DNA of 56,000 nt from Candidatus Omnitrophota bacterium (GCA_003528115.1 DOGZ01000010.1:1-56000), one strand, 5' to 3'; positions 5,286 to 54,465 are shown, numbered from the stretch's first letter. Numbers and translations are program-made. Notes: generated by a model from the sequence alone, not told the origin.

Positions 5286-5301
5286 TTTGCCTTATGCGGA
5301 T

Positions 5302-7193: not shown

Positions 7194-7199
7194 TTGTCC

Positions 7200-8510: not shown

Positions 8511-8539
8511 TCATTATCTCATTTAACTTCTTACTTTTC

Positions 8540-35289: not shown

Positions 35290-35304
35290 AAGCAGCTTCG
35301 ATTT

Positions 35305-36093
35305 TTATTGACGTTTTAAAAAGACAAAACCCATAGCCCATAATTTATCCCAGGCATAAACAATAAAGTCCCATAACGAATTCTTTAAAATAACTTCCAA
35401 TTTCTCATGGAGCGCTGCCATACCCTCGGCATGACTTTTCCCTAGAATGTTATAAAACGCGACATCCCTTTCAAGATATTTGATAGGAATGGATTGCTGA
35501 TAAACTGCCTTTAAGAACCAATCGTAGTCCGCAAGAATTCTATACCTCAAATTAAAAAACCCCACCTTATCAAAAAGTATTTTTCTGCAAAACATCCGTT
35601 GATGACAAATCTGAAATAAGATGACATCTCGTTTTCGGCTAAAAATCGTTCTCCAAGAATTTTTTTGCGGCATTACGAATCCTTCGGGGGCATTAACCAA
35701 TTGAACTTTCCCGAGTATCAACCCTAAAGCATTATTCCCTCTAAACTCACGCGCGACGTCCTCAACAACTCGATCATCACAAAATCGATCATCCGCGTTG
35801 AGAAAGTAAATAATATCCCCCGTCGCTTTAATGACACCTTTATTCATCGCGTCGTAAAGGCCATGATCCTTCTCTGCAATAACCCTGTTAATCCTGTTCT
35901 TATACTTGTTAATAATCTCCGGCGTCCGATCCGTTGATTTGCCATCGACAATGATATATTCAATGTTTTCATAAGTCTGCCCCAATACCGACAGAATGGC
36001 CTGCTCAATATACTTGTCGGCATTCAAGCAAACCGTGATAATAGAAGCCTTCAGGCTATGATTTTCCATTTGCCAATCGCTCGTCAAGCGCAC
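35305..36093 (-). CDS. Glycosyltransferase family 2
   Basis: 262 aa; ASIITVCLNADKYIEQAILSVLGQTY...IIVDGKSTD. Confidence 0.85.
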   Translation of the reverse strand: MRLTSDWQMENHSLKASIITVCLNADKYIEQAILSVLGQTYENIEYIIVDGKSTDRTPEIINKYKNRINRVIAEKDHGLYDAMNKGVIKATGDIIYFLNADDRFCDDRVVEDVAREFRGNNALGLILGKVQLVNAPEGFVMPQKNSWRTIFSRKRDVILFQICHQRMFCRKILFDKVGFFNLRYRILADYDWFLKAVYQQSIPIKYLERDVAFYNILGKSHAEGMAALHEKLEVILKNSLWDFIVYAWDKLWAMGFVFLKRQ

Positions 36094-40806: not shown

Positions 40807-40816
40807 GATATATCCC

Positions 40817-42721
40817 CTACGGAATTTTTAATTTTCCTACTGACACAGCATTGGAAATCCGGGGATCCTCCACGGATCTCAATGACGCGAATGTGCCTTT
40901 TGTCATATTAAAGAAAAGCAATTCAACATTGTATTCACCAGCCCCTAATCCAGGAAGCCAATAGGCATAATATTCTTTAACCATATCGTCTTTTTTCCAC
41001 ACACTGGTCGGAAAAAGAAGATAGCCGATATCGCGGTCTTTCTTGTAGTAAATCCGGTTTTCTTTTGTAAGAACCAATCTCATCCTATACCGATTCCCCA
41101 CATCAACTTTTGCCTTCAAATAAAAAGTTACTGGTAAAACTTCTTTTTGAGAAAGCATTTCTTGACTAATTTTCAATGATAAAAGCTCAATGCGGTCATC
41201 GACGGTTAAATGAATCCCTCTCTCCTGAGGAACAGAGTTTGCATTGACTTCAACCAATTGGAGTCCGCCCGGAACACCTTTGCGAAAAAGAACAACATCT
41301 TCGATGGCATTGTGCACAGACCAGGCGGGATCTAAAAGAAATTTACGGAGTCTTTCTGATGTAAGTGACGGGTTAGTTAAAACCGCGGAATGAAGCCAAG
41401 GGTCATTAAAATCAATCAACGCATACGCCACTTCCTCCGGCACTTGAAACGGCGACCGGCCTGTAAAAAGATTAGCGTCCAGCCACACATTATACAGGGC
41501 GTAAAGATTTTCTCTTTGCGATAACGGATCCAGCAGGTTAAACGTTGAAACAACCCCCGCGTCTTTGGGAATATGGTTAATCATCTGCCATCGGATAGGA
41601 TTAAGACGATCTCCTAAAAGAAAACTCAAACGCCTGGTGAGTTGGTTTTGAAAGTGAAACGTGTGAAAGACCGATGTTAAAACAATAACCGCTATAACTA
41701 AAATAACGATTTTCAAACGAAACCGGCTTTTGACAATCGTCCATGTATTGACCGCGGCCATAAATATAAACACAACTAATGGAGCCGCGTAGTGAAAATA
41801 AATCGTGTGCTGAGACGCGGAACCGGACAGTAAATTCTGCATGAATACCGGAAAGCCGAGAAATAAAATGTGGGGACTAAAGAACGCCAAAGCAATCAAC
41901 GGCCCAAAAAGATCACGTACATAATAAAGATTCATCTCATTGGCTGCCATTTTGACCACTTGCCACGGATGAAAGAAAAAAAATTGAATAATCGACACCG
42001 GGGAACCGCCCAATTGACTATACGCTCCCCAGTAAATATTATTTTGACCGCTAAACTCTCTTCGAAAATAAGGCGTCAATACAAACATTTCGAGGGTGAA
42101 TAGAACCACCCCTAACAAAAAGGGCGTCAAGCTCCAAAGCATCATTTTATCTTTTTTGCCAAAGAGCGCGTGAATCCCAAACATCGCCACAAGCGGCGGC
42201 ATATTCTCTTTTAATAAGCTCATCAAAACAGCAACAATCATAAACGATCTAAACTTCTCTTCCCGGTAAAAATAAAAAAGCAAAAATAAAAATCCAATCG
42301 CGAGGCTTTCAAAATGAAATTCATAAAGAAGCATAAAAATATTAGCTGGATGAATAATGAATAACGTCATAAAACAAATGGCCATCCAGGAGCCGATATT
42401 TTTTTGTGCTATCCGGTAAAAGACAAACGCTCCCCCAAAAAAGGACAAGAGATTAAGATGGATTAACGTTAATGGGTGCTGAAAAAATGAATAGACGGGG
42501 ACTAAAAGAAAGGCAAAATATTCGGAATGGTTGGCAAGAAAGTTGGTTCCATAGAGTGAAACTCGTGTAGATCCGTGGCAAAGATTCCACATGGTCTGCG
42601 CCGCTAAATCGAAATCCCAGTCATAATAACCCAAGGAATAAAACTTATTTGTCAATAGATCAGCCCAAAAAAAATAGGCGAGAACGCAAACCCCCAAGGC
42701 TACGGCATCAGATTTTGTCAA
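40817..42721 (-). CDS. DUF2079-like polytopic membrane protein (GT-C-like candidate glycosyltransferase/polymerase) with C-terminal soluble domain
   Basis: 634 aa; about 12 N-terminal TM helices, YYDWDFDLAAQTMWN motif, 230-aa C-terminal beta-rich domain. Confidence 0.5.
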   Translation of the reverse strand: MTKSDAVALGVCVLAYFFWADLLTNKFYSLGYYDWDFDLAAQTMWNLCHGSTRVSLYGTNFLANHSEYFAFLLVPVYSFFQHPLTLIHLNLLSFFGGAFVFYRIAQKNIGSWMAICFMTLFIIHPANIFMLLYEFHFESLAIGFLFLLFYFYREEKFRSFMIVAVLMSLLKENMPPLVAMFGIHALFGKKDKMMLWSLTPFLLGVVLFTLEMFVLTPYFRREFSGQNNIYWGAYSQLGGSPVSIIQFFFFHPWQVVKMAANEMNLYYVRDLFGPLIALAFFSPHILFLGFPVFMQNLLSGSASQHTIYFHYAAPLVVFIFMAAVNTWTIVKSRFRLKIVILVIAVIVLTSVFHTFHFQNQLTRRLSFLLGDRLNPIRWQMINHIPKDAGVVSTFNLLDPLSQRENLYALYNVWLDANLFTGRSPFQVPEEVAYALIDFNDPWLHSAVLTNPSLTSERLRKFLLDPAWSVHNAIEDVVLFRKGVPGGLQLVEVNANSVPQERGIHLTVDDRIELLSLKISQEMLSQKEVLPVTFYLKAKVDVGNRYRMRLVLTKENRIYYKKDRDIGYLLFPTSVWKKDDMVKEYYAYWLPGLGAGEYNVELLFFNMTKGTFASLRSVEDPRISNAVSVGKLKIP

Positions 42722-44277: not shown

Positions 44278-44458
44278 GAAGACGTTCCTAAATTTGCCAA
44301 TTTTTGTTCGAACAGGTTCATCCGAAAACTCTGATCCACCACCTGGAGTGATTTTAACAGCCGGTCTATAGAAGTCAAATATCTTCCGGAGAATAAAGGA
44401 AAATAAACAAGGAATAGATATCCATTCCCCATACGCAGGTTAATGATTCGAAGAGATT

Positions 44459-45496
44459 TTACGGATGCCGGATTTTTAAATATTCTTTAAAAAGTTTCTC
44501 GGCTTGAGGCCCGCCTAAGGGAGTCATATATTCAGGAATACTAAAGGCAACCAAGTCGGATCCGTACGCAGCATCTATCATGATCTGTTTCTGTACGCGT
44601 TCCAACTCAGCCGCTTCTGCGGCAAACTGGGTGCTCAGGGTGTCATTTCCCGTCACTTGTTTAAAAAGTTCAACAACGACTTGAAGCTGCCGGGAATTAA
44701 TTTGTGTGGCTCTGTGCAGGGACGCGAGATATTCAGGCAGTTGAGCAAACGTTAATTTGTCGGCCCCAATCCCGTCCTGAAAAAGTACGATATCAATAGG
44801 AGTGGCTTTTAAAAGGCTATCCCAAAATAATTCAAATACCCCAGGGGTCATCTCGGCATTGCAAAATCCTGACAGGGCCACGCGTTTGTCAGGAAATAGC
44901 TTGTGTAAATGCGCGCCCAAATCATTTAAATGGTCAAACAGGATCTGTTGGGACTCGAAAGTTCTCCAATTAGAATCATCAATCTCTTGTGTGATATACC
45001 AACCTTGAAATGAGTCGTATTTCTTTACTAAGGGGGCCAACCGGTCGGCCAACTCCTTGGAGGCATGGGACATATCGGCTAAATAATTTTTGACAAACGA
45101 AGTGTCCCGGGCGATTTCATTCCAATAATCCGGATCCAGCTCCAGCCCCACAAATACGTTCATTCCCGCTTTCTCAGCTTCATTAAGAATAAAATTTAAT
45201 GGGGCATCCACGCGTGATTGGTTATTCCCATCATTGAAGAATTCCAATTTGTCAAAGACAGACCACTGCACGATCAAATAGGACACCTTAAGCTGACGCA
45301 AATAAGCAAACAATCCTTCCCAATCCTCTTTTGTCCACCCTTGATGCGCAGATAACAATTGTATAAATGTCCCCTTCAAAAAAGTTTGGGAGGATTTCGT
45401 AACCGACGGATTCAAGGCACAACTCTGCGTAGAAAGCAAAAACGTGAATAACAGAAAAAACCGCAGGAACTTCTCAGACTTGACTCGATCAATCAT
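44459..45496 (-). CDS. DUF4434-like putative glycoside-hydrolase-fold lipoprotein
   Basis: 345 aa, signal peptide plus Cys (STQSCA), LKGTFIQL...QW motif; last gene of the NfrAB-like operon. Confidence 0.5.
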   Translation of the reverse strand: MIDRVKSEKFLRFFLLFTFLLSTQSCALNPSVTKSSQTFLKGTFIQLLSAHQGWTKEDWEGLFAYLRQLKVSYLIVQWSVFDKLEFFNDGNNQSRVDAPLNFILNEAEKAGMNVFVGLELDPDYWNEIARDTSFVKNYLADMSHASKELADRLAPLVKKYDSFQGWYITQEIDDSNWRTFESQQILFDHLNDLGAHLHKLFPDKRVALSGFCNAEMTPGVFELFWDSLLKATPIDIVLFQDGIGADKLTFAQLPEYLASLHRATQINSRQLQVVVELFKQVTGNDTLSTQFAAEAAELERVQKQIMIDAAYGSDLVAFSIPEYMTPLGGPQAEKLFKEYLKIRHP

Positions 45497-45533
45497 GATT
45501 CTCTTCCTAAATTTTACGCCGTTCAGAAATAAC

Positions 45534-48500
45534 TCAATATCTGAAAGTCATGGACAGAACAAAGCCGGAGGAAGAGCCGTCAAACGGAATTTTATACTGC
45601 AGGAGTAATTCAAGATTCGTCTGCTTGCCCTCTTCCTTATCGGCATTGAACGTATGCGTAAATAGGATCCCCGGTCCTCCCTCGGAGTAGGACACACTGG
45701 AGGGATCCGGATTTTCCCATCGTCCGTTGACAATTAATTGAGGTGTAATAACCAAAAAATTTTTATAATTAACGCTTACCCCCTGCCGGACCTCCGCTGA
45801 ATAAGCCCATGAGGGATTCTCCAGAAAATAACCCGCGTCCATGTAGAACGAACTATAATTCCAGCACTTCTTGCCGCGTTTCAATTCCATCCCGTTATCC
45901 CATGAATACGCCTGCCTGAAAAGCCAGTTATCCTGAGCCTGATCTCCGATTTTTATAAGCCTTTCCGCGCCCATAAAAAAATTATACAGCCTGAATGGCT
46001 TATAACGAACCCCCACGCCTCCCTGATAGGAGTCTTCTTCAATGGCCAATGAGTTCGGCGGGGTACTCCATAAGATTCTTGAGGTAATTTGAAAAATCCG
46101 TTCATCCCGAAAACCGATGACCGGCGGTTGATAGGTCATATCGATGCCGCCTTGCGATAAGATGCTTCCCCCCGTGCCTACCCCTGACGGAGCGTTGGTT
46201 TTGTTATGAGTGTTCGGGCGATACATTTGGTAAAGAGTAAAATTAAAACGGTTTTCCAATTTATGGATCTCTTTGCGCAGATGCTCCACTTCCTCATCAG
46301 ATTCCGGATTCTTCGGATCCGCGTCATTATGTCCCTCAAGACGGTGATTAATCGCACGATTAAACCATGATATAGCTTTATCATTTGCCGCGATTTTCAT
46401 GTTCAGGTATCCCAGTTCTTTGTAAAGGTCATGGGCGCGCGGATCCTGGGCCACGATCTTCTCAAAAACAGAGATGGCTTCATCATACTTGCGGATATTC
46501 ACATAAACGTAACCTAAATGTTTGGCATAAGAAACATTTTGTGGATCTTCCGAGAGGGCCGTTTCAAAACTAATGATGGCATCGTTCCATAATCCTAATT
46601 TTTGATAAAACAAACCTGATTCAAAATGATGTTCGGGTAATGTCCGCAAAGAGTTGGCTTTAGTTTTCAAAATCTCCGCGTCTTTAAATTTATGCTGTCC
46701 CTCATAGATCTCCGCCAACGTGTTTAACCACCGGACTTCCAAATCCACGGGTAATTCTTCTTCGGTTATATTTTCAAGGATGCGCTGGGCATGATCGGCG
46801 TCCCCGGCCAGTTGATACATTTTTCCTAAGGATAATGCAACATGGGGGTCTCGCTTTAAATCCAGACACTGCTGAAGAACTTGAGCGGCAAGCTTGTAAT
46901 TTCCTTCCTGGGCATGCACATAGGCCAATTCCTGATAAGCCTCGACTTCTTCCGGCGCTCTCGAAAGAATATTTTCAAAAGTCCGGCGTGCTTGAGCGAT
47001 ATTCCCCAAATACCTTTGAACTTTCCCCAAACTCAAAGCGACGCGGGCGTCGTATTCTTTATTTAAATAATTTGTCCATGTTTTCTCAGCGAGAATGTAA
47101 TTATTTCTTTGAGAATCAATGTTTCCGAGCTCGAAGTCAATATTCAATTGCTCGGATTCATCCAACATATAAGATTTGCCATGAGCGGCTTTTAAATAGT
47201 AGGTCGCGACATCGGGTTTATTCAGCTTTGTGTAACAGCGGCTTAAATAAAGTAAAAACGCTGGATCCGGATGAAGATCATTCGCCAAACGGAACTCTTC
47301 AGCCGCCTCTTGCCAACGTCCCAACTTATAAAGAGACATCCCAAGACCCCGGCGCGCTTCCCAATCATCTTCTCTTTCTTTAAGCACATTTTGAAAACTT
47401 TGGACGGCCCGAGCATCGTCTCCCAGTTGACTGTAAAGATTCGCTTGCACTTTAAGAACTTCTTTCCTCTTCGATGAAATCAAACCGGTTTTTTTTAACA
47501 ATTGTTCATTGGTCTTAACCGCTCCTTTTAAGTCCCCCTGTTTAATCCGTGTAAAGGCCAATTGTTGCAAAACCTCAGGGGTTTCCTCGATGGATACGCT
47601 TTTCTCGAAATGTTTGATAGCCTCAGAATATGACTTCGATCTCAAAAAAACATCCCCCAACTGGGCGTAGATTTCTGGATTCAACGGTTTGTCACTCTGG
47701 TTTTGTTCAAAAATATTCCTGGCCGCTGTCAAATGCTTCAAGGCCTTTTCATTATTTTGTATTCTGGAATAAAGCAGGCCTAACCTCAGATGCAGATCGT
47801 AAGAAGGACCCTTCTCCAGCCCTTCTTCCGTTACTTTAATGGCCTCAGGTAAATTCCCCATGTCCTCGAGAATCTGGCTGTAGGCCAGCAATGCTTTTAT
47901 ATCCCCGGTCATTGTAGCGGCCGCCTTAAAATCCTCCGCTGAAAGCTTGTACTCTTTCAACTGCTGATAGATATATCCCCGGGTCATTAAAATCAGTGCG
48001 ACATCTTCTTTTTCAATAAGGGAAGCAAGTATATGGGTGTATTCCGTCACAGCCTCTGTTAATCGCCCGGAAGAATACAAAATATTGGCAAGGCGTTTTT
48101 GGTTATCAACAGTTTTGTTGATTGAGAAAAGATGTTGCATCCACTGGAGGCTTTGACCGTATTTTTCCTGTTGATAGGCTAGTTGGGTCAAATTGTCTAA
48201 AATTTCAGGATTATCAGGATCCTGATTGAGCGCGGACTCAAACATAGCCTGCGCTTTTTCCCATTGAGCCTCTTTTTTGTAAAATTCCCCCAGGCCTAAA
48301 AAAACATTTCTTTGTTCTCCGGGGTCCTGGGTGAGCTCCAATGCCTTATGATAATTATGCTCGGTCTCGTCATGATGTCCTAATTTTTCTTCCACCATGC
48401 CTAAACGGTAATAAAGGTTGAATCCCTCCTGGATTGTTTTTATTTCCTGCAAGGCGTTTAATGCCTCCTGATAGGACTGCTCTTTGATGGCCAGATCCGC

Positions 48501-49037
48501 CACCATATTTAAGGCAAACACGCGATCGTCCCGGCTGATATCCTTAAGACCCGCGGCCCCGCGAAAACTCTTGATAGCCTCCATCGATTGATCAAGATTC
48601 TGATGAGCCAATCCTTTATAGAGAAAGGCGGTTGATGATTCAGGCTGAATCTTTAAGATATCTTCCGCCTCCTGGATAACGCGCACATATTCTTTAAGTT
48701 GATATAAAAGCACGACATAAGTCGCGCGTACCGCCTGATCCCGAGGAGAAATATGAATATATTTTTCCAGTTCTTCTTTTGCTTCTTGAAGGCGATTATC
48801 CTCCATCAAACGGTAAGCCTTATCAAGATGGGGATATGTCCTGAATAAACGGATTTCTCGCTTAAGCCAATTCGTTGGAGAAGGAGTGTTCGGTTGAGAG
48901 GTCATGGGGGCCTCTGGAGTTGGCCTAGCCTCATCTGCCGGAACCGGCAGACTTAAAGTCATCAATACCAGGACCAAAGAAAAACATCTAAGGCCGACGC
49001 ATATTAAGGCAAGTCGATTCTTAACGTTAATCTTCAT
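45534..49037 (-). CDS. Outer-membrane TPR-repeat / C-terminal beta-barrel polysaccharide secretion protein (NfrA/PgaA/BcsC-like)
   Basis: 1167 aa; signal peptide, over 20 TPR units, C-terminal 300 aa alternating beta-strand pattern ending in aromatic ...SMTFRY; 11-nt overlap with the upstream synthase gene. Confidence 0.7.
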   Translation of the reverse strand: MKINVKNRLALICVGLRCFSLVLVLMTLSLPVPADEARPTPEAPMTSQPNTPSPTNWLKREIRLFRTYPHLDKAYRLMEDNRLQEAKEELEKYIHISPRDQAVRATYVVLLYQLKEYVRVIQEAEDILKIQPESSTAFLYKGLAHQNLDQSMEAIKSFRGAAGLKDISRDDRVFALNMVADLAIKEQSYQEALNALQEIKTIQEGFNLYYRLGMVEEKLGHHDETEHNYHKALELTQDPGEQRNVFLGLGEFYKKEAQWEKAQAMFESALNQDPDNPEILDNLTQLAYQQEKYGQSLQWMQHLFSINKTVDNQKRLANILYSSGRLTEAVTEYTHILASLIEKEDVALILMTRGYIYQQLKEYKLSAEDFKAAATMTGDIKALLAYSQILEDMGNLPEAIKVTEEGLEKGPSYDLHLRLGLLYSRIQNNEKALKHLTAARNIFEQNQSDKPLNPEIYAQLGDVFLRSKSYSEAIKHFEKSVSIEETPEVLQQLAFTRIKQGDLKGAVKTNEQLLKKTGLISSKRKEVLKVQANLYSQLGDDARAVQSFQNVLKEREDDWEARRGLGMSLYKLGRWQEAAEEFRLANDLHPDPAFLLYLSRCYTKLNKPDVATYYLKAAHGKSYMLDESEQLNIDFELGNIDSQRNNYILAEKTWTNYLNKEYDARVALSLGKVQRYLGNIAQARRTFENILSRAPEEVEAYQELAYVHAQEGNYKLAAQVLQQCLDLKRDPHVALSLGKMYQLAGDADHAQRILENITEEELPVDLEVRWLNTLAEIYEGQHKFKDAEILKTKANSLRTLPEHHFESGLFYQKLGLWNDAIISFETALSEDPQNVSYAKHLGYVYVNIRKYDEAISVFEKIVAQDPRAHDLYKELGYLNMKIAANDKAISWFNRAINHRLEGHNDADPKNPESDEEVEHLRKEIHKLENRFNFTLYQMYRPNTHNKTNAPSGVGTGGSILSQGGIDMTYQPPVIGFRDERIFQITSRILWSTPPNSLAIEEDSYQGGVGVRYKPFRLYNFFMGAERLIKIGDQAQDNWLFRQAYSWDNGMELKRGKKCWNYSSFYMDAGYFLENPSWAYSAEVRQGVSVNYKNFLVITPQLIVNGRWENPDPSSVSYSEGGPGILFTHTFNADKEEGKQTNLELLLQYKIPFDGSSSGFVLSMTFRY

Positions 49038-50688
49038 ATTTTTGCTTTTCTAATGCAAACATTAAATCTTTTTCCTTAATATATCCCATATCCATGAGGA
49101 TGTTGCCGAGGAATTGATGCTGTTCACTTTTTTTCCGGCAAACTTCTTGATGCAGGAGCGCTTCTTCGAGATATTGAAGTGTTATCAATTTGCTGCCTAA
49201 AAGAAGGTCCCCCAACCGGCACCGACAGGACCCCAGTTCTTCTTCGGAAGGATAGTGGTGAGATGTCTTGTCCCACGCGATCGCTTTCCCTGTCGCTAAA
49301 TGGCGGACATAAATCCGTACCGCACGAAAAGTCGCCACACAATTGATCAGGTTTCCCCATATCATCCGCGGGAATGAGAGCAAGGCCTGTCGGTACCCGT
49401 AGAGCCTCTGGACGCAATAAGCCCGTTGCACAATCCGTAATCCAAAAAACGCCGCGTTAATTAAAGTCACATTCCACAACCAAGTCCCTCGTTCCAGAAG
49501 CGGCGGATAGCGGTAGGTGTCCGGATTAATCCAGAGCATAAACCAGACCGATAACACACTTAATACGACCACATAGCCCAATATATTTATAAAATTCGTA
49601 ACGAGCGCCTTGCGGTCACGGAAAAGCATATATTTTGTCGCGAGGTCCCCTTTCCAGCCTAATTGGGCCCAGCCTTGAAAAGCAATGCCGATGATCCAGC
49701 GTGATTTTTGACGGACTGCGGCAGTAAAACTTTTGGGGAAATATTCACGGACGCAAACATATTCTTTAACTCTATTTTGAATGATCTTCTTGCTCCAAAA
49801 AGATTTCCGGGTTTGGGTCCTGGTAATCGCGAATTTTACAAAAATCTGCTTTAATCCATGCTTCTTTAATTGAAAGCCGAAATCATAATCTTCTGTTAAC
49901 GAGTCAAGACTGAACAATTGGCCGTTCTTCTCCTTCGATAATAAATCGAACGATCGGCGGCTGAACGCGCAGCCCACCCCTGCGGCCGGTATACTTTTAT
50001 TGATATCTTCCCGGACAATGATGTCCTTGTAATGCCCTTGCGCGAACTCATCGATATAATGTCCGGCGGTAAACTGGGACCACTTCACGGGCAGGGAAAA
50101 GACCGGTAGTTGCACCATGTCGTTACGCGGAATTAAATAGTTAAAAAGTTTATAGCAAAGGGGATGGATCACGTCCTCACAGTCCTGCATGACAAAAATG
50201 GAAAATTTGAGTTCTCTCTTTTTCTCAAAAAGTTTGATCCCCAGAAAAATGTTATTCAAACAATCCGCTTTATTGGTCGGCCCGTCCTGAGGACAAACAC
50301 ACAGTTGGATATTGGGATGCGCCTCTCTGACTTTTTCAACCTCGATTTGCGTCTTGAGGTCATTGGGATAAACACCCACAAAAATATGAAAATTTTTATA
50401 ATTTAAATTCTTCAGGGTGTTCATCAACATGGGACGAATGACGGAGGACTCGTCCCAGGCAGGGATCATGACGGCGATCGTTTGTTCAGGGCATTCGAGA
50501 AGCTGACGTTCCTGTAATGGGGCATACCGGCTATAAATAAATATTTTCCGGTAAAAGCTTCTTCCCATAAACCACAAATCTATAAAAAGGTCATCCGCCC
50601 CGCTTATGAGGAATATAACACTGGTCAGAATCAGGAGGAATTTCATCAGAACTAAAACGTACGGCAAAATATCCAACAATTCCATCAT
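49027..50688 (-). CDS. NfrB-like GT2 exopolysaccharide synthase with C-terminal MshEN (c-di-GMP-binding) domain
   Basis: 553 aa; N-terminal TM, GT2 catalytic core, 3 more TMs, then tandem MshEN motifs RLGDLLLGSKLITLQYLEEALLHQ and LGNILMDMGYIKEKDLMFALEKQ. Confidence 0.8.
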   Translation of the reverse strand: MMELLDILPYVLVLMKFLLILTSVIFLISGADDLFIDLWFMGRSFYRKIFIYSRYAPLQERQLLECPEQTIAVMIPAWDESSVIRPMLMNTLKNLNYKNFHIFVGVYPNDLKTQIEVEKVREAHPNIQLCVCPQDGPTNKADCLNNIFLGIKLFEKKRELKFSIFVMQDCEDVIHPLCYKLFNYLIPRNDMVQLPVFSLPVKWSQFTAGHYIDEFAQGHYKDIIVREDINKSIPAAGVGCAFSRRSFDLLSKEKNGQLFSLDSLTEDYDFGFQLKKHGLKQIFVKFAITRTQTRKSFWSKKIIQNRVKEYVCVREYFPKSFTAAVRQKSRWIIGIAFQGWAQLGWKGDLATKYMLFRDRKALVTNFINILGYVVVLSVLSVWFMLWINPDTYRYPPLLERGTWLWNVTLINAAFFGLRIVQRAYCVQRLYGYRQALLSFPRMIWGNLINCVATFRAVRIYVRHLATGKAIAWDKTSHHYPSEEELGSCRCRLGDLLLGSKLITLQYLEEALLHQEVCRKKSEQHQFLGNILMDMGYIKEKDLMFALEKQKYED

Positions 50689-50713
50689 TGCCCTCGGTTA
50701 TCAAAATTGATTA

Positions 50714-50812
50714 TTAGTGCACTGTCAAATTAATTTTTAAGTGCTGATTTTAAGAAAAAGTGCGCTGGTATACTGTGTTCCACTTTTAACAATTAAGATA
50801 ACACAGTATTAG
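50714..50812 (+). repeat. Structured intergenic repeat element, copy D
   Basis: Box1 AGTGCACT / Box2 AGTGCGCT; hairpin ATACTGTGTT...AACACAGTAT with the same TTAACAATTAAG loop as copy A. Confidence 0.7.
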
Positions 50813-50835
50813 GAACAAAGAATTTATCAACCGTA

Positions 50836-52065
50836 TTACAAAGAGTAGGCATGAGGAACCGGAGAAAAAGGGATATTTCGTGTTGATTGGGATGATGCAT
50901 GTTCTTGGCAGGTCATATTTAACAAATATTGGACGATGCGTTCTCCCGCGTGGCCGTCACCAAAAGGATTTTCCCCACGAATCATTGATGCATAAGCGAC
51001 AGGGTCATTTAATAAATGGGCGGCTTCCTGCACAATCAATTCCGGCCTGGCCCCGACCACTTTGGCCATTCCAGCTTGCATAGCCTCGGGCCGTTCGGTG
51101 AGTTTGCGTAAAACCAGCAAAGGTTTTCTCAAAGTGGGGGCTTCTTCCTGGACCCCTCCGGAATCCGTCAGAATAAGATAAGAACGTTTCATCAAATGAA
51201 TAAATGTATGGTAATCAAGAGGTCCTGTAAGAAATATTCTTTCCGTATTACCCAGAACTTCATGAGCTGTCTTTTGGACCACGGGGTTCATGTGCACCGG
51301 ATAAACCACAATGAGATCCGAAAATCGTTCAACCAAAAGTTTTATAGCCAGACAGATGTTCTGAAGATCGTTCCCCCAGGACTCCCGGCGATGCGAAGTG
51401 ACCAAGAGGATCCGGCGATTCGTCATCGGTATATGTTCGAGCGGCGTTTTTTCCAAACGGAAAGGCCTATCGAGCTGATAGTGGAGCGCGTCAACAACCG
51501 TATTACCCGTGATAAGGATATTGTCGGCACAAACGCCCTCTTGCAATAGTTGGTCACGGGATAAAGCGGTTGGAGCGAAATGCATTTTTGCTAAAACAGT
51601 CGTTAAACGGCGGTTGATTTCTTCAGGGAAGGGATTATGGATATCATAACTGCGCAACCCCGCTTCGATATGGCCGACTGGAATACGATTATAGAACGCG
51701 GCCATGGCGCTGCCAAAGACCGTGGTCGTATCCCCCTGGACTAAAAGCATATCAGGGCTGAGTTCACGCAACGTATCATTCATCAGGGACATGACGCGGC
51801 ACGTGAGATCACTCAACGTCTGCTGAGGCTGCATGACATTTAAATCGATGTCGGGAGTAATTTCAAAAAGTTCAAGGACCTGATCAAGCATTTGTCGATG
51901 CTGGGCGGTGGCAATCACAATGGTCTCTAACTCCTGAGACCTCCGTCGCAATGCCCGAACAACGGGAGCCATTTTGATAGCTTCCGGCCGTGTCCCGATA
52001 GTCAAGGCAATTCTAGGGCGATTAAAATCTTTCTTATATTGAGACTTATCAATCTTTAGGATCAT
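50836..52065 (-). CDS. wecB: UDP-N-acetylglucosamine 2-epimerase (non-hydrolysing)
   Basis: RIALTIGTRPEAIKMAPV N-terminus and full epimerase_2 length; start set at MILKID (52065, GGAGA Shine-Dalgarno 10 nt upstream); the longer frame to 52185 overlaps a degenerate repeat element. Confidence 0.9.
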   Translation of the reverse strand: MILKIDKSQYKKDFNRPRIALTIGTRPEAIKMAPVVRALRRRSQELETIVIATAQHRQMLDQVLELFEITPDIDLNVMQPQQTLSDLTCRVMSLMNDTLRELSPDMLLVQGDTTTVFGSAMAAFYNRIPVGHIEAGLRSYDIHNPFPEEINRRLTTVLAKMHFAPTALSRDQLLQEGVCADNILITGNTVVDALHYQLDRPFRLEKTPLEHIPMTNRRILLVTSHRRESWGNDLQNICLAIKLLVERFSDLIVVYPVHMNPVVQKTAHEVLGNTERIFLTGPLDYHTFIHLMKRSYLILTDSGGVQEEAPTLRKPLLVLRKLTERPEAMQAGMAKVVGARPELIVQEAAHLLNDPVAYASMIRGENPFGDGHAGERIVQYLLNMTCQEHASSQSTRNIPFSPVPHAYSL

Positions 52066-52462: not shown

Positions 52463-53380
52463 ATGACCAATTCACTACCGGAACAAGACGGCAAGGACGA
52501 TCCTTTATTTAACCTCGACAGAAGAATTAAAAGTTTTGCCCGTGATTTACTAAACGAATTTAACGCAAATAAAATAAAACTGACCGCTATCCCCAGCCAC
52601 AAGCGTATCTTCGTGTTTTTCCTGACTCGAGCCATCAAGACATATTCGGCCATCAGTCACCTCAGCAAAGACGGTTATGGCCAGGACACCGCGACGCTTT
52701 TAAGAAGCCTTCTCGAGAACTTAATTTCCGCTAAATATATCCTTTCCGACTTTCTTTCCGCCGATGAGAAAGCTGTTCGCTTTGTTGCCTATAAGTGGAT
52801 CATATTTAAAAGGTATGTCGCCCATTTCGGCAATGAATCTCATCCAATCAAAGATTCGTTGTTAAACGAGCTTTCCTCCAATATGCCCATGATCCAAAAA
52901 AAAGTTGAAGAATTCAAATCTAAATACCGTATCCAATCCGACAAAGCCCTTATTACCTGGTCCGGGCGCTCCATACGCGATATGGCAAAGATGGCCAAAC
53001 CATCGCTTGAGGAAGAATACGACTTGACCTTTCGCACCTCCTCCCGTTTTTCTCATCCCAGCATCATCGGCGACCATGAATATCTTGATTGCAAAGATGA
53101 CCAGCTTATTTTCTCCCCTTTCCCCTCAGACATCGGAGTTCAGACAAACCTAAAACTTGCCCTGCGCTATCTGTTGGATTTCTTTGATCTTTTTGTCGCC
53201 TTATTTGACCTCAAAGCCAAGACTGAATTAAACAATCTGCGCGAAGTCTTCAAGATTGTCGAGCATGATGACGCATCGCAGGCTGAGCCTTCCTCCGGAA
53301 AATCCAACTTGAAATTAACATCGACACAAAAAGAAAATATTATTATTAAATTTCAAACCCCATCGCCAGATCAATATTAA
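52463..53380 (+). CDS. Hypothetical cytoplasmic protein of unknown function
   Basis: 305-aa ORF with a near-consensus promoter; no TM and no recognisable catalytic motif. Confidence 0.5.
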   Translation: MTNSLPEQDGKDDPLFNLDRRIKSFARDLLNEFNANKIKLTAIPSHKRIFVFFLTRAIKTYSAISHLSKDGYGQDTATLLRSLLENLISAKYILSDFLSADEKAVRFVAYKWIIFKRYVAHFGNESHPIKDSLLNELSSNMPMIQKKVEEFKSKYRIQSDKALITWSGRSIRDMAKMAKPSLEEEYDLTFRTSSRFSHPSIIGDHEYLDCKDDQLIFSPFPSDIGVQTNLKLALRYLLDFFDLFVALFDLKAKTELNNLREVFKIVEHDDASQAEPSSGKSNLKLTSTQKENIIIKFQTPSPDQY

Positions 53381-53490
53381 CCACCCCACAAAAAGCTCTT
53401 TCCTTTCTCCTCGTCATAAAAACTACATTTTTATTTCCTTTTCTGCCCCATGTGTCCGCGTGTGACCTGGTTTGTCCCCCACCTCCCAAT

Positions 53491-53546
53491 TGTCACAGAT
53501 TGTCATACTATGTCTTATTGACAATTTCAGCATAAGTCGTTATATA
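53491..53546 (+). promoter_or_regulatory. Sigma-70-type promoter (TTGACA-17bp-TATATA) with upstream ATTGTCA direct/inverted repeats
   Basis: -35 at 53518-53523, -10 at 53541-53546; AATTGTCA (53488-53495), ATTGTCA (53499-53505) and the inverted TGACAATT overlapping the -35. Confidence 0.55.
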
Positions 53547-53619
53547 GATTGCACACTTTTAACAGGACTCATTTGGTCATAATAAAAAGATCGCGCATTA
53601 CTGGCAAAGGAGCTTTCTG

Positions 53620-54465
53620 ATGAATGATTTAATGCTACAGCAGATCGAAAGGATCCCTATTTACCAGCATAACAAAGAAATTTTTCGGCTCTTATGCGGA
53701 TTAGATCTGGAAATTTGCAGACCCGACGGGAGCCCTCTTTATACTGCCACCAGCAGGAAAGATAAAATCAATACAAACGGCCTCATACAATGCCCTCTTA
53801 AGAAAAATTGCAAACAAAAGACTTTAGAAAACAGTCACTGCACAATTATAAACCCTCAAACTCTCACCCTCATTTGCCATAATCAAAGGCCGGAAATTTA
53901 TACCTGTCCCGATGGATTTAAAATGATTATCATCCCCATCGTTTTTAAAGAAGAGGTCGTGGGCCTCGTTTTCACCAAAGAAAAAGAACCCTTCCGCTTT
54001 CATGGCGAACAATGTCGAACCACGACAGATCTTCTCTATAAATTCATCAACGACACCGTCAAGAATGAATTCATGCAATTCGGTTTAACTTTGTATCAAG
54101 GGAATTCCGTGACACGCCAAAAAGAGCTCTTAAATAGGGCCGTTGATTATATTAAGAGAAATTATCAATCGAACGATTTAACTTTGCAAGAAGTCGCCCA
54201 AAATAACGGGATAAGCTATCACTATCTCAGCCGTCTTTTTAAAAAAGAATTAGACACGACTTTTGCCCAATTTAGGAATAAAGTACGTATGGAAGCGGCA
54301 AAAAAATTGCTTAAAAAGCAGCGTTTATCCGTATCCCAAATCTCCTTCGCCTGCGGATTTGATGATCCCGGCTATTTCTGCAAGGTATTCAAAAGCTCTT
54401 TCGGGGCATCTCCAGTGAACTTTCGCACCAAGAAACAGTCTAAGTCCCGACTCGATTCAAAATAA
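53620..54465 (+). CDS. AraC-family transcriptional regulator
   Basis: 281 aa; C-terminal double HTH (LQEVAQNNGISYHYLSRLFKK...VSQISFACGFDDPGYFCKVFK); Cys-rich N-terminal sensor domain; AGGAG Shine-Dalgarno. Confidence 0.85.
   Translation: MNDLMLQQIERIPIYQHNKEIFRLLCGLDLEICRPDGSPLYTATSRKDKINTNGLIQCPLKKNCKQKTLENSHCTIINPQTLTLICHNQRPEIYTCPDGFKMIIIPIVFKEEVVGLVFTKEKEPFRFHGEQCRTTTDLLYKFINDTVKNEFMQFGLTLYQGNSVTRQKELLNRAVDYIKRNYQSNDLTLQEVAQNNGISYHYLSRLFKKELDTTFAQFRNKVRMEAAKKLLKKQRLSVSQISFACGFDDPGYFCKVFKSSFGASPVNFRTKKQSKSRLDSK

What the first reader, a model, noticed from the sequence alone, without database searches (positions are those of the whole stretch)
44459..52065. Complete NfrB/NfrA-type c-di-GMP-gated secreted-polysaccharide module with wecB and a DUF4434 hydrolase-like gene
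The 553-aa GT2 synthase has the NfrB architecture: an N-terminal TM, a cytoplasmic GT2 domain, further TMs and a C-terminal domain. That C-terminal domain carries two tandem MshEN c-di-GMP-binding motifs, RLGDLLLGSKLITLQYLEEALLHQ and LGNILMDMGYIKEKDLMFALEKQ, which match the RLGxxLLxxGLIxxxxLxxALxxQ consensus. Its gene overlaps by 11 nt a 1167-aa signal-peptide, TPR and C-terminal beta-barrel protein (NfrA/PgaA/BcsC-like). wecB, which makes UDP-ManNAc, sits directly upstream, and a DUF4434 TIM-barrel-like lipoprotein sits downstream. In E. coli the NfrAB system needs WecB-derived UDP-ManNAc and local c-di-GMP, and is known mainly as the phage N4 receptor pathway. Here the precursor gene, synthase, secretin and a putative product-trimming hydrolase are all in one operon. 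This predicts a c-di-GMP-activated ManNAc-containing exopolysaccharide in this organism, with the DUF4434 protein as a new accessory component.
Basis: partly seen in the sequence, partly recalled or inferred. Interest (0 to 1): 0.75.

Follow-up and report, generated by a model that had tools for sequence, protein, structure and literature searches.

The report
Nfr-type polysaccharide secretion operon
This is a compact four-gene copy of the already-described Nfr (phage N4 receptor) sugar-polymer secretion system in an uncultured Omnitrophota bacterium; it is a real but ordinary member of a widespread family, and the supposedly new fourth gene is the counterpart of E. coli ybcH.

Summary
All four ORFs exist as described, on the minus strand: wecB, a 553-aa NfrB-like GT2 synthase, an 1167-aa TPR + NfrA_C protein overlapping it by 11 nt, and a 345-aa DUF4434 protein. 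The source is Omnitrophica WOR_2 bacterium GWA2_45_18. The synthase is 41% identical to E. coli NfrB and keeps the DxD/TED/QxxRW signatures. Its last ~60 residues are a genuine MshEN-type c-di-GMP module (NCBIfam above cutoff; tail profile hits MshE 5HTL at 7e-15).

The novelty claim fails. E. coli's published operon is nfrB-nfrA-ybcH, and YbcH is a DUF4434 protein. The wecB-nfrB-nfrA-DUF4434 cassette recurs in 14 of 60 fully flanked reference loci from many phyla, and wecB lies upstream on the same strand in 58 of 70.

Real differences are modest:
- It is a short NfrB form that ends right after motif II.
- The inter-motif spacer is 11 residues instead of 5.
- Close relatives lack the tail entirely.
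- No GGDEF/EAL gene lies within ~76 kb.

One useful by-product: the DUF4434 model (pLDDT 92) is a clan GH-A-like TIM barrel with invariant Glu at β4 and β7. This supports a hydrolase role rather than the published "scaffold" label.

Verdict: new member of a known kind, with low to moderate interest.

The parts
50836..52065 (-). wecB: non-hydrolysing UDP-GlcNAc 2-epimerase, which supplies UDP-ManNAc. It is 409 aa from the ATG at 52065. The maximal ORF extends to a TTG at 52185.
   Evidence: Pfam Epimerase_2 at 1.4e-112. The TIGR00236 wecB equivalog scores 469 bits against a cutoff of 210. The source contig has a 409-aa gene call. wecB lies upstream of nfrB on the same strand in 58 of 70 reference loci.
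50689..50835 (-). The 147-nt wecB-nfrB spacer. It holds a 10-bp perfect inverted repeat (50800-50809 and 50770-50779), a perfect -35-like TTGACA (50723-50728) and a GAGGG ribosome-binding site just before the nfrB ATG. It may be an internal promoter or operator for nfrB-nfrA-DUF4434.
   Evidence: Read directly from the sequence. This is not a tested function, and the promoter scan did not list it.
49027..50688 (-). Short-form NfrB-like processive GT2 synthase, 553 aa. It has an N-terminal TM (aa ~8-38), a GT2 domain (aa ~71-384) with DxD (D169/E171/D172), TED (265-267) and QxxRW (327-331), and a TM at 360-389 followed by a less hydrophobic helix region.
   Evidence: 41% identity to E. coli NfrB over aa 4-550. 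NF012033 scores 636 bits against a cutoff of 537. The NfrB equivalog NF008411 scores 585 bits, below its cutoff of 1170. The catalytic columns are invariant in 20 homologues.
49039..49218 (-). MshEN_N-type c-di-GMP-binding tail of the synthase (aa 491-549). Motif I is aa 491-514, the spacer is the 11 residues EVCRKKSEQHQ, and motif II is aa 526-549. The protein ends 4 residues later.
   Evidence: NF053729 scores 39.5 bits against a cutoff of 38. phmmer against the PDB hits only the MshEN regions of PilF, PilB and MshE. The tail profile A6 hits MshE 5HTL residues 4-61 at 7e-15, PilF at 3.9e-25 and PilB at 6.6e-13. 11 of the 12 key residues defined by Wang et al. 2016 are present.
45534..49037 (-). 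NfrA-like export protein, 1167 aa. It has a signal peptide (aa ~1-34, ...PVPA/DE), a long TPR region (aa ~60-900), and a C-terminal NfrA_C beta-barrel region (aa ~930-1167) ending in the aromatic ...TFRY. Its start overlaps the nfrB stop by 11 nt.
   Evidence: Many TPR families plus NfrA_C at 87 bits, E 1.1e-24, over aa 1001-1155. The AF2 model of aa 900-1167 shows a helix plus 12 long beta-strands at pLDDT 58. All top Foldseek hits are outer-membrane barrels: OmpG 9.4e-4, KdgM-type porins, FapF and BcsC.
44459..45496 (-). DUF4434 protein, the YbcH counterpart, 345 aa. It has a signal peptide, possibly a lipoprotein signal with the loose lipobox TQSC, and a clan GH-A-like (beta/alpha)8 barrel. 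The candidate catalytic residues are E171 (end of beta4) and E276 (end of beta7).
   Evidence: DUF4434 at 8e-50. NF007404 at 2.9e-35. E. coli ybcH is annotated as DUF4434. The AF2 model has pLDDT 91.9. Foldseek gives 4h41 at 5.5e-17 with TM 0.71, then Cwp19, GH10/53/5 enzymes and PslG. E171 is present in 59 of 59 homologues and E276 in 58 of 59. Both are kept in E. coli YbcH.
44407..44432 (-). Terminator-like hairpin with an 11-pair stem and a T-rich tail, 27 nt after the DUF4434 stop codon. It is the likely 3' end of the operon.
   Evidence: A promoter-like TTGACT-16-TAAAAT at 44378-44351 follows it, upstream of the unrelated CPA2 antiporter gene. These are consensus matches only, and the counts in the region do not exceed shuffles.

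Best explanation
The region encodes a complete Nfr-type, synthase-dependent exopolysaccharide pathway in an Omnitrophota bacterium. The steps below are inferred from homology unless marked otherwise.

1. WecB epimerises UDP-GlcNAc to UDP-ManNAc in the cytoplasm.
2. The inner-membrane GT2 enzyme, a short-form NfrB, polymerises a ManNAc-containing glycan and passes it across the inner membrane in the manner of BcsA.
3. The synthase is switched on when c-di-GMP binds its C-terminal roughly 59-residue MshEN_N four-helix module.
4. The NfrA-like protein receives the chain with its periplasmic TPR array and exports it through its C-terminal outer-membrane beta-barrel.
5. The periplasmic DUF4434/YbcH protein is a clan GH-A-like glycoside hydrolase. 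It trims or clears the polymer, the role that BcsZ, PslG and the hydrolase domains of PgaB and PelA play in other synthase-dependent systems.

Shown here by computation: family membership of all four proteins, intact catalytic and ligand-binding motifs, the TIM-barrel fold, and the conserved gene linkage. Inferred from E. coli genetics and biochemistry: c-di-GMP activation and the use of UDP-ManNAc. Inferred from fold and residue conservation only: hydrolase activity of DUF4434.
For: Family membership:
- The synthase is 41% identical to E. coli NfrB over aa 4-550. It scores above the cutoff of NF012033, and DxD, TED and QxxRW are invariant.
- The tail is MshEN-type: NF053729 is above cutoff, the tail profile hits MshE 5HTL at 7e-15 with only MshEN/GSPII domains among significant hits, and 11 of 12 key ligand-contact residues are present.
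- E. coli NfrB has the same family-wide deviations from the canonical motif and binds c-di-GMP with a Kd of about 1 uM. It needs both its GT and MshEN residues for function (PMC8669469; PMC8669472).
- NfrA_C at 87 bits plus TPRs and a signal peptide. The C-terminus is predicted all-beta with outer-membrane-barrel neighbours.
- DUF4434 corresponds to YbcH, the third gene of the E. coli operon.

DUF4434 as a hydrolase:
- The model is confident (pLDDT 91.9) and GH-A-like, and its matches include the EPS hydrolase PslG.
- E171 is invariant and E276 is near-invariant (58/59); they sit at the ends of beta4 and beta7.

Gene context:
- Of 70 reference loci with upstream flank, wecB is directly upstream in 26 and further upstream on the same strand in 32.
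- 14 of 60 fully flanked loci show the same four-gene, same-strand cassette, in Nitrosomonas, Methylobacter, Desulfovibrionaceae, Halopseudomonas and others.
- Two further cassettes come from Omnitrophota or close relatives.
- The 11-nt overlap mirrors the 14-nt overlap of E. coli nfrB and nfrA.
- A terminator-like hairpin follows the DUF4434 gene.
Against: - No diguanylate cyclase, phosphodiesterase or PilZ gene occurs in the window or within 10 kb either side. Whether this organism makes c-di-GMP was not established.
- The spacer between the two motifs is 11 residues instead of 5. Motif II starts with Phe instead of the guanine-stacking Arg, and motif I lacks the turn Gly. Neither motif passes the literal relaxed regex of Wang et al..
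- The protein scores only half the cutoff of the NfrB equivalog model, because it lacks the C-terminal roughly 200 residues of E. coli NfrB.
- Close relatives carry the same cassette with no c-di-GMP tail at all, so the synthase can evidently work without this control.
- The barrel model has low confidence (pLDDT 58) and shows 12 strands. A barrel profile found no solved homologue.
- The Nfr polymer has never been chemically defined, even in E. coli. I found no later structural work on it.
- YbcH is dispensable for N4 infection and only partly needed for the motility phenotype. Its authors call it a putative scaffold.
Confidence: 0.8

Rival explanations
1. The secretion machine is the same, but in this organism it is not controlled by c-di-GMP. 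The C-terminal tail would be a degenerate or repurposed helical appendage, for example a protein-interaction or autoinhibitory element. The polymer would be made constitutively or under transcriptional control.
For: - The spacer is 11 residues and F526 replaces the stacking Arg. The literal motif regex fails.
- No c-di-GMP enzymes are found in about 76 kb.
- Tail-less synthases at 57-73% identity sit in otherwise identical cassettes, so the tail is dispensable in evolution.
- A possible regulatory inverted repeat and a -35 box lie in front of nfrB.
Against: - 11 of 12 ligand-contact residues are retained, including both LG pairs, both LxxxL pairs and both terminal Gln.
- The HMM score is above the curated cutoff.
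- The family profile hits MshE at 7e-15.
- The closest relative, P0002, conserves both motifs through the same insertion. That argues for selection on the module rather than decay.
- PilB MshEN domains with spacers longer than 5 residues also align.
Confidence: 0.15
2. The DUF4434/YbcH protein is a non-catalytic periplasmic scaffold or carbohydrate-binding adaptor that links NfrB to NfrA, as proposed for E. coli. It would not be a hydrolase.
For: - Junkermeier and Hengge describe YbcH as a putative scaffold. Deleting it has only a partial effect on motility and no effect on N4 plating.
- No member of DUF4434 has a demonstrated activity. The best structural match, 4h41, is only a 'putative' fucosidase.
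- The residue before the candidate acid/base is Q or E, not the usual Asn of GH-A 'NE' motifs.
Against: - Two glutamates sit exactly at the ends of beta4 and beta7, in 59/59 and 58/59 homologues. An invariant set of Trp, Tyr, Gln and Asp residues around them is typical of a sugar-binding active site, not of a scaffold.
- The other characterised synthase-dependent EPS systems carry a periplasmic glycosidase or lyase that is often non-essential for secretion (established knowledge; not tested here).
- PslG is among the structural neighbours.
Confidence: 0.35
3. The polymer is not ManNAc-based. WecB here would serve another glycan, for example one made by the neighbouring LPS or EPS gene sets, and NfrB would use a different UDP-sugar.
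For: - The window is packed with other glycan genes: GT4, GT2, GT9, a Wzx flippase, a pyruvyl transferase, and Wza/Wzc-like proteins.
- A 147-nt gap with a promoter-like element separates wecB from nfrB.
- The polymer's chemistry is unknown even in E. coli.
Against: - wecB is linked to nfrB on the same strand in 58 of 70 loci across unrelated phyla, and is directly adjacent in 26.
- In L009 wecB even overlaps nfrB.
- In E. coli, wecB is the only wec gene needed for Nfr function.
Confidence: 0.15

Closest known systems
E. coli K-12 Nfr system: the nfrB-nfrA-ybcH operon plus the unlinked wecB (nfrC) and DgcJ (Junkermeier & Hengge 2021, PMC8669469; Sellner et al. 2021, PMC8669472)
   Same: - The three core proteins occur in the same order with an overlapping nfrB/nfrA junction, 11 nt here and 14 nt in E. 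coli.
- The GT2 domain has identical catalytic signatures.
- The dual-motif MshEN module sits at the same position, right after the WDKTxHxYP segment.
- NfrA has a signal peptide, TPRs and NfrA_C.
- YbcH is a DUF4434 protein with the same invariant residues.
   Different: - wecB is part of the cluster here, whereas in E. coli it lies in the distant wec operon.
- NfrB is 553 aa against 745 aa. It lacks the roughly 200-aa C-terminal region that carries the rest of the T2SSE_N-like domain and further motif repeats, and so fails the NfrB equivalog cutoff (585 against 1170 bits).
- The spacer is 11 residues against about 5.
- NfrA is 1167 aa against 990 aa, with more TPRs.
- No partner diguanylate cyclase is nearby.
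- The host is an uncultured Omnitrophota bacterium, not an enterobacterium.
wecB-nfrB-nfrA-DUF4434 cassettes in other bacteria: Nitrosomonas L003/L029, Methylobacter L006, Fundidesulfovibrio L014, Halodesulfovibrio L022, Halopseudomonas L036/L059, Omnitrophota L009, L086, and the Comamonadaceae plasmid CP099603
   Same: The same four genes occur in the same order on the same strand. The synthases are 44-73% identical to the window protein.
   Different: - The tail class varies. Among 80 loci, 36 are short like this one, 34 are long and 10 have no tail.
- Some clusters insert extra genes, for example a DUF2334 deacetylase-like gene in Comamonadaceae, and BcsB-like and O-acetyltransferase genes in Achromobacter according to PMC8669472.
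- Of the 20 synthases aligned, only the window protein and P0002 have the 6-residue spacer insertion.
MshEN c-di-GMP receptor domain of V. cholerae MshE and of the PilB/PilF ATPases (Wang et al. 2016, PMC5013675; PDB 5HTL)
   Same: There are two tandem 24-residue motifs. The tail has RLG...L...L..Q and then xLG...G...L...L..Q, and the family profile aligns to MshE residues 4-61 at 7e-15.
   Different: - The module is fused to the C-terminus of a glycosyltransferase instead of the N-terminus of an ATPase.
- Only the 4-helix MshEN_N part is present. There is no alpha/beta subdomain and no Pfam T2SSE_N hit.
- The spacer is 11 residues instead of 5.
- Phe replaces Arg at motif II position 1, and Lys replaces the turn Gly in motif I.
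Other synthase-dependent EPS systems: cellulose (BcsA/B/C/Z), PNAG (PgaABCD), Pel, Psl and alginate
   Same: The overall logic is shared: a c-di-GMP-activated inner-membrane synthase, a TPR plus beta-barrel exporter like BcsC and PgaA, and a periplasmic glycoside hydrolase like BcsZ and PslG. PslG and BcsC appear among the structural neighbours.
   Different: - The c-di-GMP sensor is MshEN rather than PilZ (BcsA, Alg44), the PgaCD interface or the PelD I-site.
- No BcsB-like or PgaD-like co-subunit is encoded here.
- The hydrolase candidate belongs to DUF4434, not to GH8, GH39 or GH153.
- The NfrA barrel shows no detectable sequence similarity to solved barrels.

Membership tests
Nfr system (NfrB synthase) | Processive GT2 domain with DxD, TED and QxxRW signatures, and full-length homology to E. 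coli NfrB | tested here: met
   41% identity over aa 4-550. D169/E171/D172, T265-E266-D267 and Q327..R330-W331 are invariant in 20 homologues. NF012033 scores 636 bits against a cutoff of 537.
Nfr system (NfrB synthase) | Scores as an equivalog of E. coli NfrB (NCBIfam NF008411, cutoff 1170 bits), including the C-terminal roughly 200-aa region after the c-di-GMP motifs | tested here: not met
   The score is 585 bits, and only profile positions 3-535 of 723 are matched. The protein ends 4 residues after motif II, so E. coli residues ~545-745 have no counterpart. It is a short-form paralogue or orthologue class, not a strict equivalog.
Nfr system (NfrB synthase) | C-terminal MshEN-type c-di-GMP-binding module | tested here: met
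   NF053729 scores 39.5 bits against a cutoff of 38, E 3.5e-10, at aa 491-549. The tail profile hits 5HTL at 7e-15.
Nfr system (NfrB synthase) | Actual c-di-GMP binding and c-di-GMP-dependent activity | not testable with these tools
   This needs DRaCALA, ITC or MST assays and in vivo work. It is known only for E. coli NfrB, with a Kd of about 1 uM.
Nfr system (NfrA exporter) | Signal peptide, periplasmic TPR array and C-terminal NfrA_C domain, encoded immediately after nfrB and overlapping it | tested here: met
   NfrA_C scores 87.3 bits against a cutoff of 25, with many TPR families. The N-terminus has a hydrophobic segment at aa 7-34. The overlap is 11 nt.
Nfr system (NfrA exporter) | The C-terminal domain forms a transmembrane beta-barrel | tested here: inconclusive
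   The AF2 model from a 4-sequence alignment shows a helix plus 12 long strands, but pLDDT is only 58. All top Foldseek hits are outer-membrane barrels but weak, the best being OmpG at 9.4e-4 with TM 0.47. The protein ends in the aromatic ...TFRY, and aromatic and Gly content are enriched. A profile search found no solved homologue.
Nfr system (YbcH) | A DUF4434 protein encoded directly downstream of nfrA | tested here: met
   PF14488 scores 170 bits. E. coli ybcH is annotated as DUF4434. The alignment shares 31 invariant columns, including E171 and E276. The gap after nfrA is 37 nt.
Nfr system (accessory factors) | Dedicated diguanylate cyclase partner (DgcJ-like) providing local c-di-GMP | tested here: not met
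   No GGDEF, EAL, HD-GYP or PilZ domain occurs in any ORF of 150 aa or more in the window, or in the gene kb either side. In E. coli dgcJ is also unlinked. The rest of the genome was not searched, so this does not exclude a partner elsewhere.
Nfr system (product) | WecB-dependent, presumably ManNAc-containing, polymer | not testable with these tools
   Only the genetic linkage could be tested. wecB is upstream on the same strand in 58 of 70 loci.
MshEN domain (Wang et al. 2016) | Two 24-residue motifs, each with six key residues (R1, L2, G3, L17, L21, Q24) | tested here: met
   Motif I has 6 of 6: R491, L492, G493, L507, L511 and Q514. Motif II has 5 of 6: F526 in place of Arg, then L527, G528, L542, L546 and Q549.
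MshEN domain (Wang et al. 2016) | Literal relaxed search pattern [RKPN]hGxxhhxx[GAS]hhxxxxhxxxhxx[QNKRYWST] | tested here: not met
   There is no regex hit. K500 occupies the [GAS] turn position of motif I, and F526 occupies position 1 of motif II. Motif I of E. coli NfrB and most family members also fail at position 10, yet E. coli NfrB binds c-di-GMP.
MshEN domain (Wang et al. 2016) | 5-residue spacer giving a 53-residue module | tested here: not met
   The spacer is the 11 residues EVCRKKSEQHQ, giving a 59-residue module. The 6-residue insertion is shared only with P0002. The PilB hits aligned need an insertion at the same place, so their spacers are also longer than 5.
MshEN domain (Wang et al. 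2016) | Full T2SSE_N/GSPII domain, meaning the four-helix bundle plus the alpha/beta subdomain | tested here: not met
   There is no PF05157 hit at E <= 0.01, and the protein ends after the bundle. Long-form relatives do carry PF05157. Only the minimal MshEN_N module is present.
Clan GH-A glycoside hydrolases (for the DUF4434 protein) | (beta/alpha)8 barrel with an acid/base Glu at the end of beta4 and a nucleophile Glu at the end of beta7 | tested here: met
   In the pLDDT 91.9 model, strand 163-172 carries E171 and strand 270-276 carries E276. These residues are present in 59/59 and 58/59 homologues. Foldseek matches GH10, GH53, GH5, PslG and 4h41. Residue-level superposition on a solved active site was not available.
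Clan GH-A glycoside hydrolases (for the DUF4434 protein) | Demonstrated glycosidase activity | not testable with these tools
   I found no characterised DUF4434 member. One unrelated paper mentions the family.
   Only TPR-type families and NfrA_C appear among the 25 best Pfam hits shown (31 hit in all), none of them a secretin family. The protein is a PgaA/BcsC-style TPR-porin, not a secretin.

The most novel reading that the evidence does not exclude
DUF4434/YbcH is the missing periplasmic glycoside hydrolase of Nfr-type systems. It would be a new clan GH-A-like family acting on the ManNAc-based N4 glycan receptor polymer, not a scaffold. In addition, the MshEN tail of NfrB would be a freely gained and lost plug-in switch, with none, 59-residue and roughly 250-residue forms within one cassette type. 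This 59-residue version with an 11-residue spacer and Phe-for-Arg stacking would then be a minimal natural c-di-GMP sensor on a synthase.
Probability: 0.45. Interest if true: 0.45.

Novelty: new member of a known kind. Interest (0 to 1): 0.3.

Why it matters
As a discovery it matters little. The Nfr pathway, its c-di-GMP control through MshEN, its dependence on WecB and its third gene ybcH were all published in 2021. Cassettes like this one are common in reference genomes.

Three by-products are useful to people working on Nfr and c-di-GMP:

- The physical linkage of wecB to nfrB in 58 of 70 loci across many phyla is independent comparative support for the E. coli genetic inference that NfrB uses the WecB product. 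It also shows the system is far from 'sporadic' outside enterobacteria.
- The fold and the invariant Glu pair of DUF4434 give a concrete, testable enzymatic hypothesis for YbcH, which the literature treats as a scaffold.
- The natural series of no-tail, short-tail and long-tail synthases in otherwise identical cassettes offers ready-made material for dissecting how MshEN gates a glycosyltransferase.

The finding also upgrades four 'hypothetical protein' annotations in an Omnitrophota genome.

Tried and rejected
- **Split MshEN protein in tail-less clusters.** The 100-aa ORF after the Comamonadaceae synthase is a low-complexity Ala/Pro-rich signal-bearing peptide, not an MshEN motif. Rejected.
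- **Tail-less class as an artefact of frameshifts or contig ends.** In L009 and L086, nfrA starts within 4 to 64 nt of a 488-500-aa nfrB. Rejected.
- **Deep alignment for the NfrA barrel.** The word-indexed homologue search returned only 4 proteins, so the AF2 model is poor. An 18-sequence barrel profile built from the fetched loci found no solved relative. The loci-derived sequences could not be used for structure prediction.
- **Promoter and terminator scan.** Counts do not exceed shuffled controls. Only the hairpin after the DUF4434 gene is used, and only as weak support.
- **Nearby diguanylate cyclases.** None found in the window or 10 kb either side.
- **Later work defining the Nfr polymer or YbcH/DUF4434 function.** Nothing relevant found.
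- **Neighbouring genes as part of the module.** The CPA2 antiporter, DUF2079, DUF5677 and AraC genes were considered and rejected. They are separated by terminator-like and promoter-like signals or are divergently oriented, and none of the gene tables examined for other cassettes shows a CPA2, DUF2079, DUF5677 or AraC-family neighbour (E. coli has envY, whose family I did not check); the tblastn survey did not query these genes.
- **Pfam T2SSE_N on the synthase.** No hit. Only the shorter NCBIfam motif model detects the tail.

Full report
**1. What is in the sequence**

- wecB at 50836-52065 (409 aa from the ATG; the maximal ORF begins at a TTG at 52185);
- a 553-aa GT2 protein at 49027-50688;
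- an 1167-aa protein at 45534-49037, whose start overlaps the GT2 stop by 11 nt;
- a 345-aa protein at 44459-45496.

Gene calls on the public contig that contains the window give 409, 552, 1167 and 345 aa. The contig is 162 kb. The proteins are 100% identical to 'hypothetical proteins' of Omnitrophica WOR_2 bacterium GWA2_45_18.

A 147-nt spacer separates wecB from the synthase gene, and 37 nt separate the TPR gene from the DUF4434 gene. A terminator-like hairpin (11-pair stem, T-rich tail) sits 27 nt after the DUF4434 stop. It is followed by a promoter-like element for the next, unrelated gene, a CPA2 antiporter. I treat these signals as weak support only, because the scan's counts do not exceed shuffled controls.

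**2. Identity of the four proteins**

*WecB.* It passes the wecB equivalog model (TIGR00236, 469 bits against a cutoff of 210).

*The synthase.* It hits Glyco_tranf_2_3 (3.6e-34). It scores 636 bits on NF012033 (cutoff 537) and 585 bits on the E. coli NfrB equivalog NF008411 (cutoff 1170). BLASTP against E. coli NfrB gives 41% identity over residues 4-550. In an alignment of 20 homologues the DxD (D169/E171/D172), TED (265-267) and QxxRW (327-331) signatures are invariant. These are the same residues whose mutation abolishes E. coli NfrB function (PMC8669469). Hydropathy shows an N-terminal TM and a TM at 360-389, followed by less hydrophobic helices. This agrees with the published NfrB topology.

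*The 1167-aa protein.* It has an N-terminal signal-like segment, about 840 residues of TPR repeats, and the Pfam NfrA_C domain (87 bits, E 1.1e-24, aa 1001-1155).

*The fourth protein.* It is a DUF4434 member (170 bits).

**3. The c-di-GMP module**

Wang et al. [quoted passage not shown] The motifs are joined by a 5-residue spacer, and each has six key residues.

The window protein has motif I at 491-514 with 6 of 6 key residues. Motif II is at 526-549 with 5 of 6, F526 replacing the stacking Arg.

Three sequence-model tests agree:
- NCBIfam's 53-position MshE-related motif model scores 39.5 bits (cutoff 38, E 3.5e-10).
- The tail alone finds only the MshEN regions of PilF, PilB and MshE in the PDB.
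- A 16-sequence profile of NfrB tails hits V. cholerae MshE 5HTL residues 4-61 at 7e-15, PilF at 3.9e-25 and PilB at 6.6e-13. No unrelated protein scores below E = 0.29.

The deviations are real:
- The spacer is 11 residues. The 6-residue insertion is shared only with the 80%-identical P0002.
- K500 replaces the turn Gly.
- Neither motif passes the literal relaxed regex of Wang et al..
- Pfam T2SSE_N does not hit, because only the four-helix MshEN_N part is present and the protein ends four residues after motif II.

[quoted passage not shown] I therefore rate binding as likely, at about 0.7, but unproven.

**4.

The MshEN test is passed (section 3).

For the barrel, only four homologues could be recruited for the alignment. 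The AF2 model of aa 900-1167 is therefore weak, with pLDDT 58 and pTM 0.46. Its topology is still unambiguous: one helix followed by 12 long antiparallel strands. Every one of the top Foldseek hits is an outer-membrane beta-barrel, including OmpG at 9.4e-4, KdgM-type porins, FapF and BcsC. The region is enriched in aromatic residues and Gly, and the protein ends in ...TFRY. A barrel profile found no solved homologue by sequence.

I score this test as supportive but formally inconclusive. The Pfam NfrA_C hit is the strongest evidence. 'Secretin' is a misnomer, because only TPR-type families and NfrA_C appear among the Pfam hits listed.

**5. The DUF4434 protein is not new to the system**

The E. 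coli operon is nfrB-nfrA-ybcH (PMC8669469). In an annotated E. coli record, ybcH directly follows nfrA and is labelled 'DUF4434 family protein'. The window protein hits the corresponding NCBIfam model NF007404. It aligns with YbcH with 31 invariant columns. This removes the main novelty claim.

- A 59-sequence alignment gave a confident model (pLDDT 91.9, pTM 0.86) with eight beta/alpha units.
- Foldseek finds 4h41 (BT_0435, E 5.5e-17, TM 0.71). It then finds Cwp19, GH10 xylanases, GH53 galactanases, GH5 mannanases and 4zn2 (P. aeruginosa glycosyl hydrolase; PslG, from my own knowledge).
- E171 lies at the C-terminal end of strand 4 (59/59 homologues) and E276 at the end of strand 7 (58/59). 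This is the clan GH-A catalytic arrangement.
- D174, Q240-D241-G242, W78, W177 and Y323 are also invariant. All are kept in E. coli YbcH.

'DUF4434' occurs in a single unrelated paper in the searchable library.

The 'lipoprotein' label is weak. The Cys context is TQSC, and only 5 of 59 homologues have any lipobox-like Cys.

**6. How common is the arrangement?**

I examined the 80 best loci by tblastn with the four window proteins:
- wecB is directly upstream on the same strand in 26 of 70 loci with enough upstream flank. It is further upstream on the same strand in 32, elsewhere in the locus in 5, and absent within 10 kb in 7.
- NfrA_C is detectable downstream in 37 of 63 loci. This is an underestimate at E <= 1e-8, given how fast the barrel diverges.
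- NfrA_C is followed by DUF4434 in 21 of those loci.
- The full four-gene, same-strand cassette occurs in 14 of 60 fully flanked loci. Examples are Nitrosomonas, Methylobacter, Fundidesulfovibrio, Halodesulfovibrio, Lawsonia and Halopseudomonas.
- The cassette also occurs on a Comamonadaceae plasmid with two inserted genes, in another Omnitrophota MAG (L009), and in L086.

Sellner et al. had noted wecB-nfrA-nfrB clustering in Achromobacter but called homologues elsewhere 'sporadic'. The arrangement here is therefore a typical, already-sequenced architecture.

**7. What differs from E. coli**

- *Short form.* The synthase has no counterpart of E. coli residues ~545-745, which in long forms carry PF05157/PF14332 hits. 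Among the 80 loci the tail classes are 36 short, 34 long and 10 with no tail.
- *Tail-less relatives.* These are genuine. A 73%-identical relative (P0004/L086) and Omnitrophota L009 have nfrA starting immediately after a 488-500-aa nfrB. The small ORF after the Comamonadaceae synthase is not a split MshEN. The c-di-GMP switch is thus an evolutionarily labile add-on.
- *Spacer.* 11 residues, as described in section 3.
- *No nearby c-di-GMP enzymes.* No GGDEF, EAL or PilZ gene occurs in the 56-kb window or 10 kb either side. E. coli dgcJ is also unlinked, so this is weak negative evidence.
- *Spacer elements.* The wecB-nfrB spacer contains a 10-bp perfect inverted repeat and a perfect TTGACA. 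This hints at a separate promoter or operator for nfrB-nfrA-DUF4434.

**8. Mechanism and verdict**

The best explanation (confidence about 0.8 for the system as a whole) has five steps:
1. WecB makes UDP-ManNAc.
2. Short-form NfrB polymerises and translocates a ManNAc-containing glycan.
3. NfrB is active when c-di-GMP occupies its C-terminal MshEN_N bundle.
4. NfrA guides and exports the chain.
5. The DUF4434/YbcH protein hydrolyses or trims it in the periplasm.

Step 1 and the family membership in steps 2 and 4 are shown by computation. c-di-GMP activation and the sugar identity are inferred from E. coli work. The hydrolase role is inferred from fold and residue conservation.

The rivals are an unregulated tail (about 0.15), DUF4434 as a scaffold (about 0.35 for that one component) and a non-ManNAc product (about 0.15).

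This is a new member of a known kind. Interest is about 0.3, carried mainly by the hydrolase hypothesis for YbcH/DUF4434 and by the natural series of tail variants.

Noticed in passing
window 50723-50809 (minus strand), in the wecB-nfrB spacer: There is a 10-bp perfect inverted repeat, ATACTGTGTT ... AACACAGTAT (50800-50809 and 50770-50779), with a 20-nt loop. A perfect -35-like TTGACA follows at 50723-50728, about 35 nt before the nfrB ATG. This may be an operator plus internal promoter, or an RNA hairpin.
   Followed up: no
A3 alignment; loci L009 (5872-7374) and L086 (7006-8472); 80-locus survey: NfrB homologues come in three tail classes within otherwise identical cassettes: no MshEN tail (~490 aa), a minimal tail (~542-553 aa) and a long tail (~750 aa, with PF05157 and PF14332). 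A 73%-identical relative of the window protein has no tail at all. The c-di-GMP switch therefore seems to be gained and lost readily.
   Followed up: partly
window 469-9358 and 10048-11448: This is a second, separate polysaccharide export cluster. It encodes an ABC-2 permease, a FemAB-like GNAT, an ATP-grasp-like protein, a polysaccharide deacetylase, an AAA_31 tyrosine-kinase-like ATPase, an AAA_22 ATPase, a GNVR/Wzz protein and a Wza-like Poly_export protein. It sits next to a sigma-54 gene. The arrangement resembles EpsI/PEP-CTERM-type EPS loci.
   Followed up: no
window 34243-42721: This is a third glycan gene set directly downstream of the Nfr operon's neighbourhood. It encodes GT4, GT2, two GT9 (heptosyltransferase-like) enzymes, a polysaccharide pyruvyl transferase, a Wzx-type flippase and a 634-aa DUF2079 membrane protein. 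The 56-kb window is unusually dense in envelope-glycan functions.
   Followed up: no
window 18430-20517 (minus strand): A 695-aa protein combines a cyclic-nucleotide-binding domain (cNMP_binding), an AAA_31-like segment and a patatin-like phospholipase domain. It looks like a cNMP-regulated lipase.
   Followed up: no
window 16186-18282 (minus strand): A single 698-aa ORF fuses porphobilinogen deaminase (HemC), a tetrapyrrole methylase (CobA/SirA-like) and uroporphyrinogen-III synthase (HemD). It lies next to hemB and a class-III aminotransferase (hemL-like). This is a three-domain haem/sirohaem fusion.
   Followed up: no
L083 11455-19905, which is window ~55074 onward and beyond the window end: Just past the AraC-family gene lie a 757-aa protein with no Pfam hit, a C39 peptidase, a Phenol_MetA_deg outer-membrane channel and an 882-aa STT3-type oligosaccharyltransferase homologue. 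The STT3 gene is an interesting find in a bacterial candidate phylum.
   Followed up: no
window 52463-54465 (plus strand): Divergent from wecB are a DUF5677 protein (305 aa) and an AraC-family regulator with a weak PocR-like sensory N-terminus (281 aa). Whether the regulator controls the Nfr operon is unknown.
   Followed up: no
L085 13367-14817, about 2 kb left of the window start: An AbiEi/AbiEii toxin-antitoxin (abortive-infection) pair sits next to the ABC-transporter/Wzt glycan export genes.
   Followed up: no
L001 7600-8229 (E. coli NfrB C-terminal region): The roughly 200-aa C-terminal extension of E. coli NfrB contains a further MshEN-like motif, LGKFLVTEGVISQETLDRVLTIQR. Long-form homologues show two to three such extra repeats (A3 columns 660-760). 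The published mutational work targeted only the first pair.
   Followed up: no
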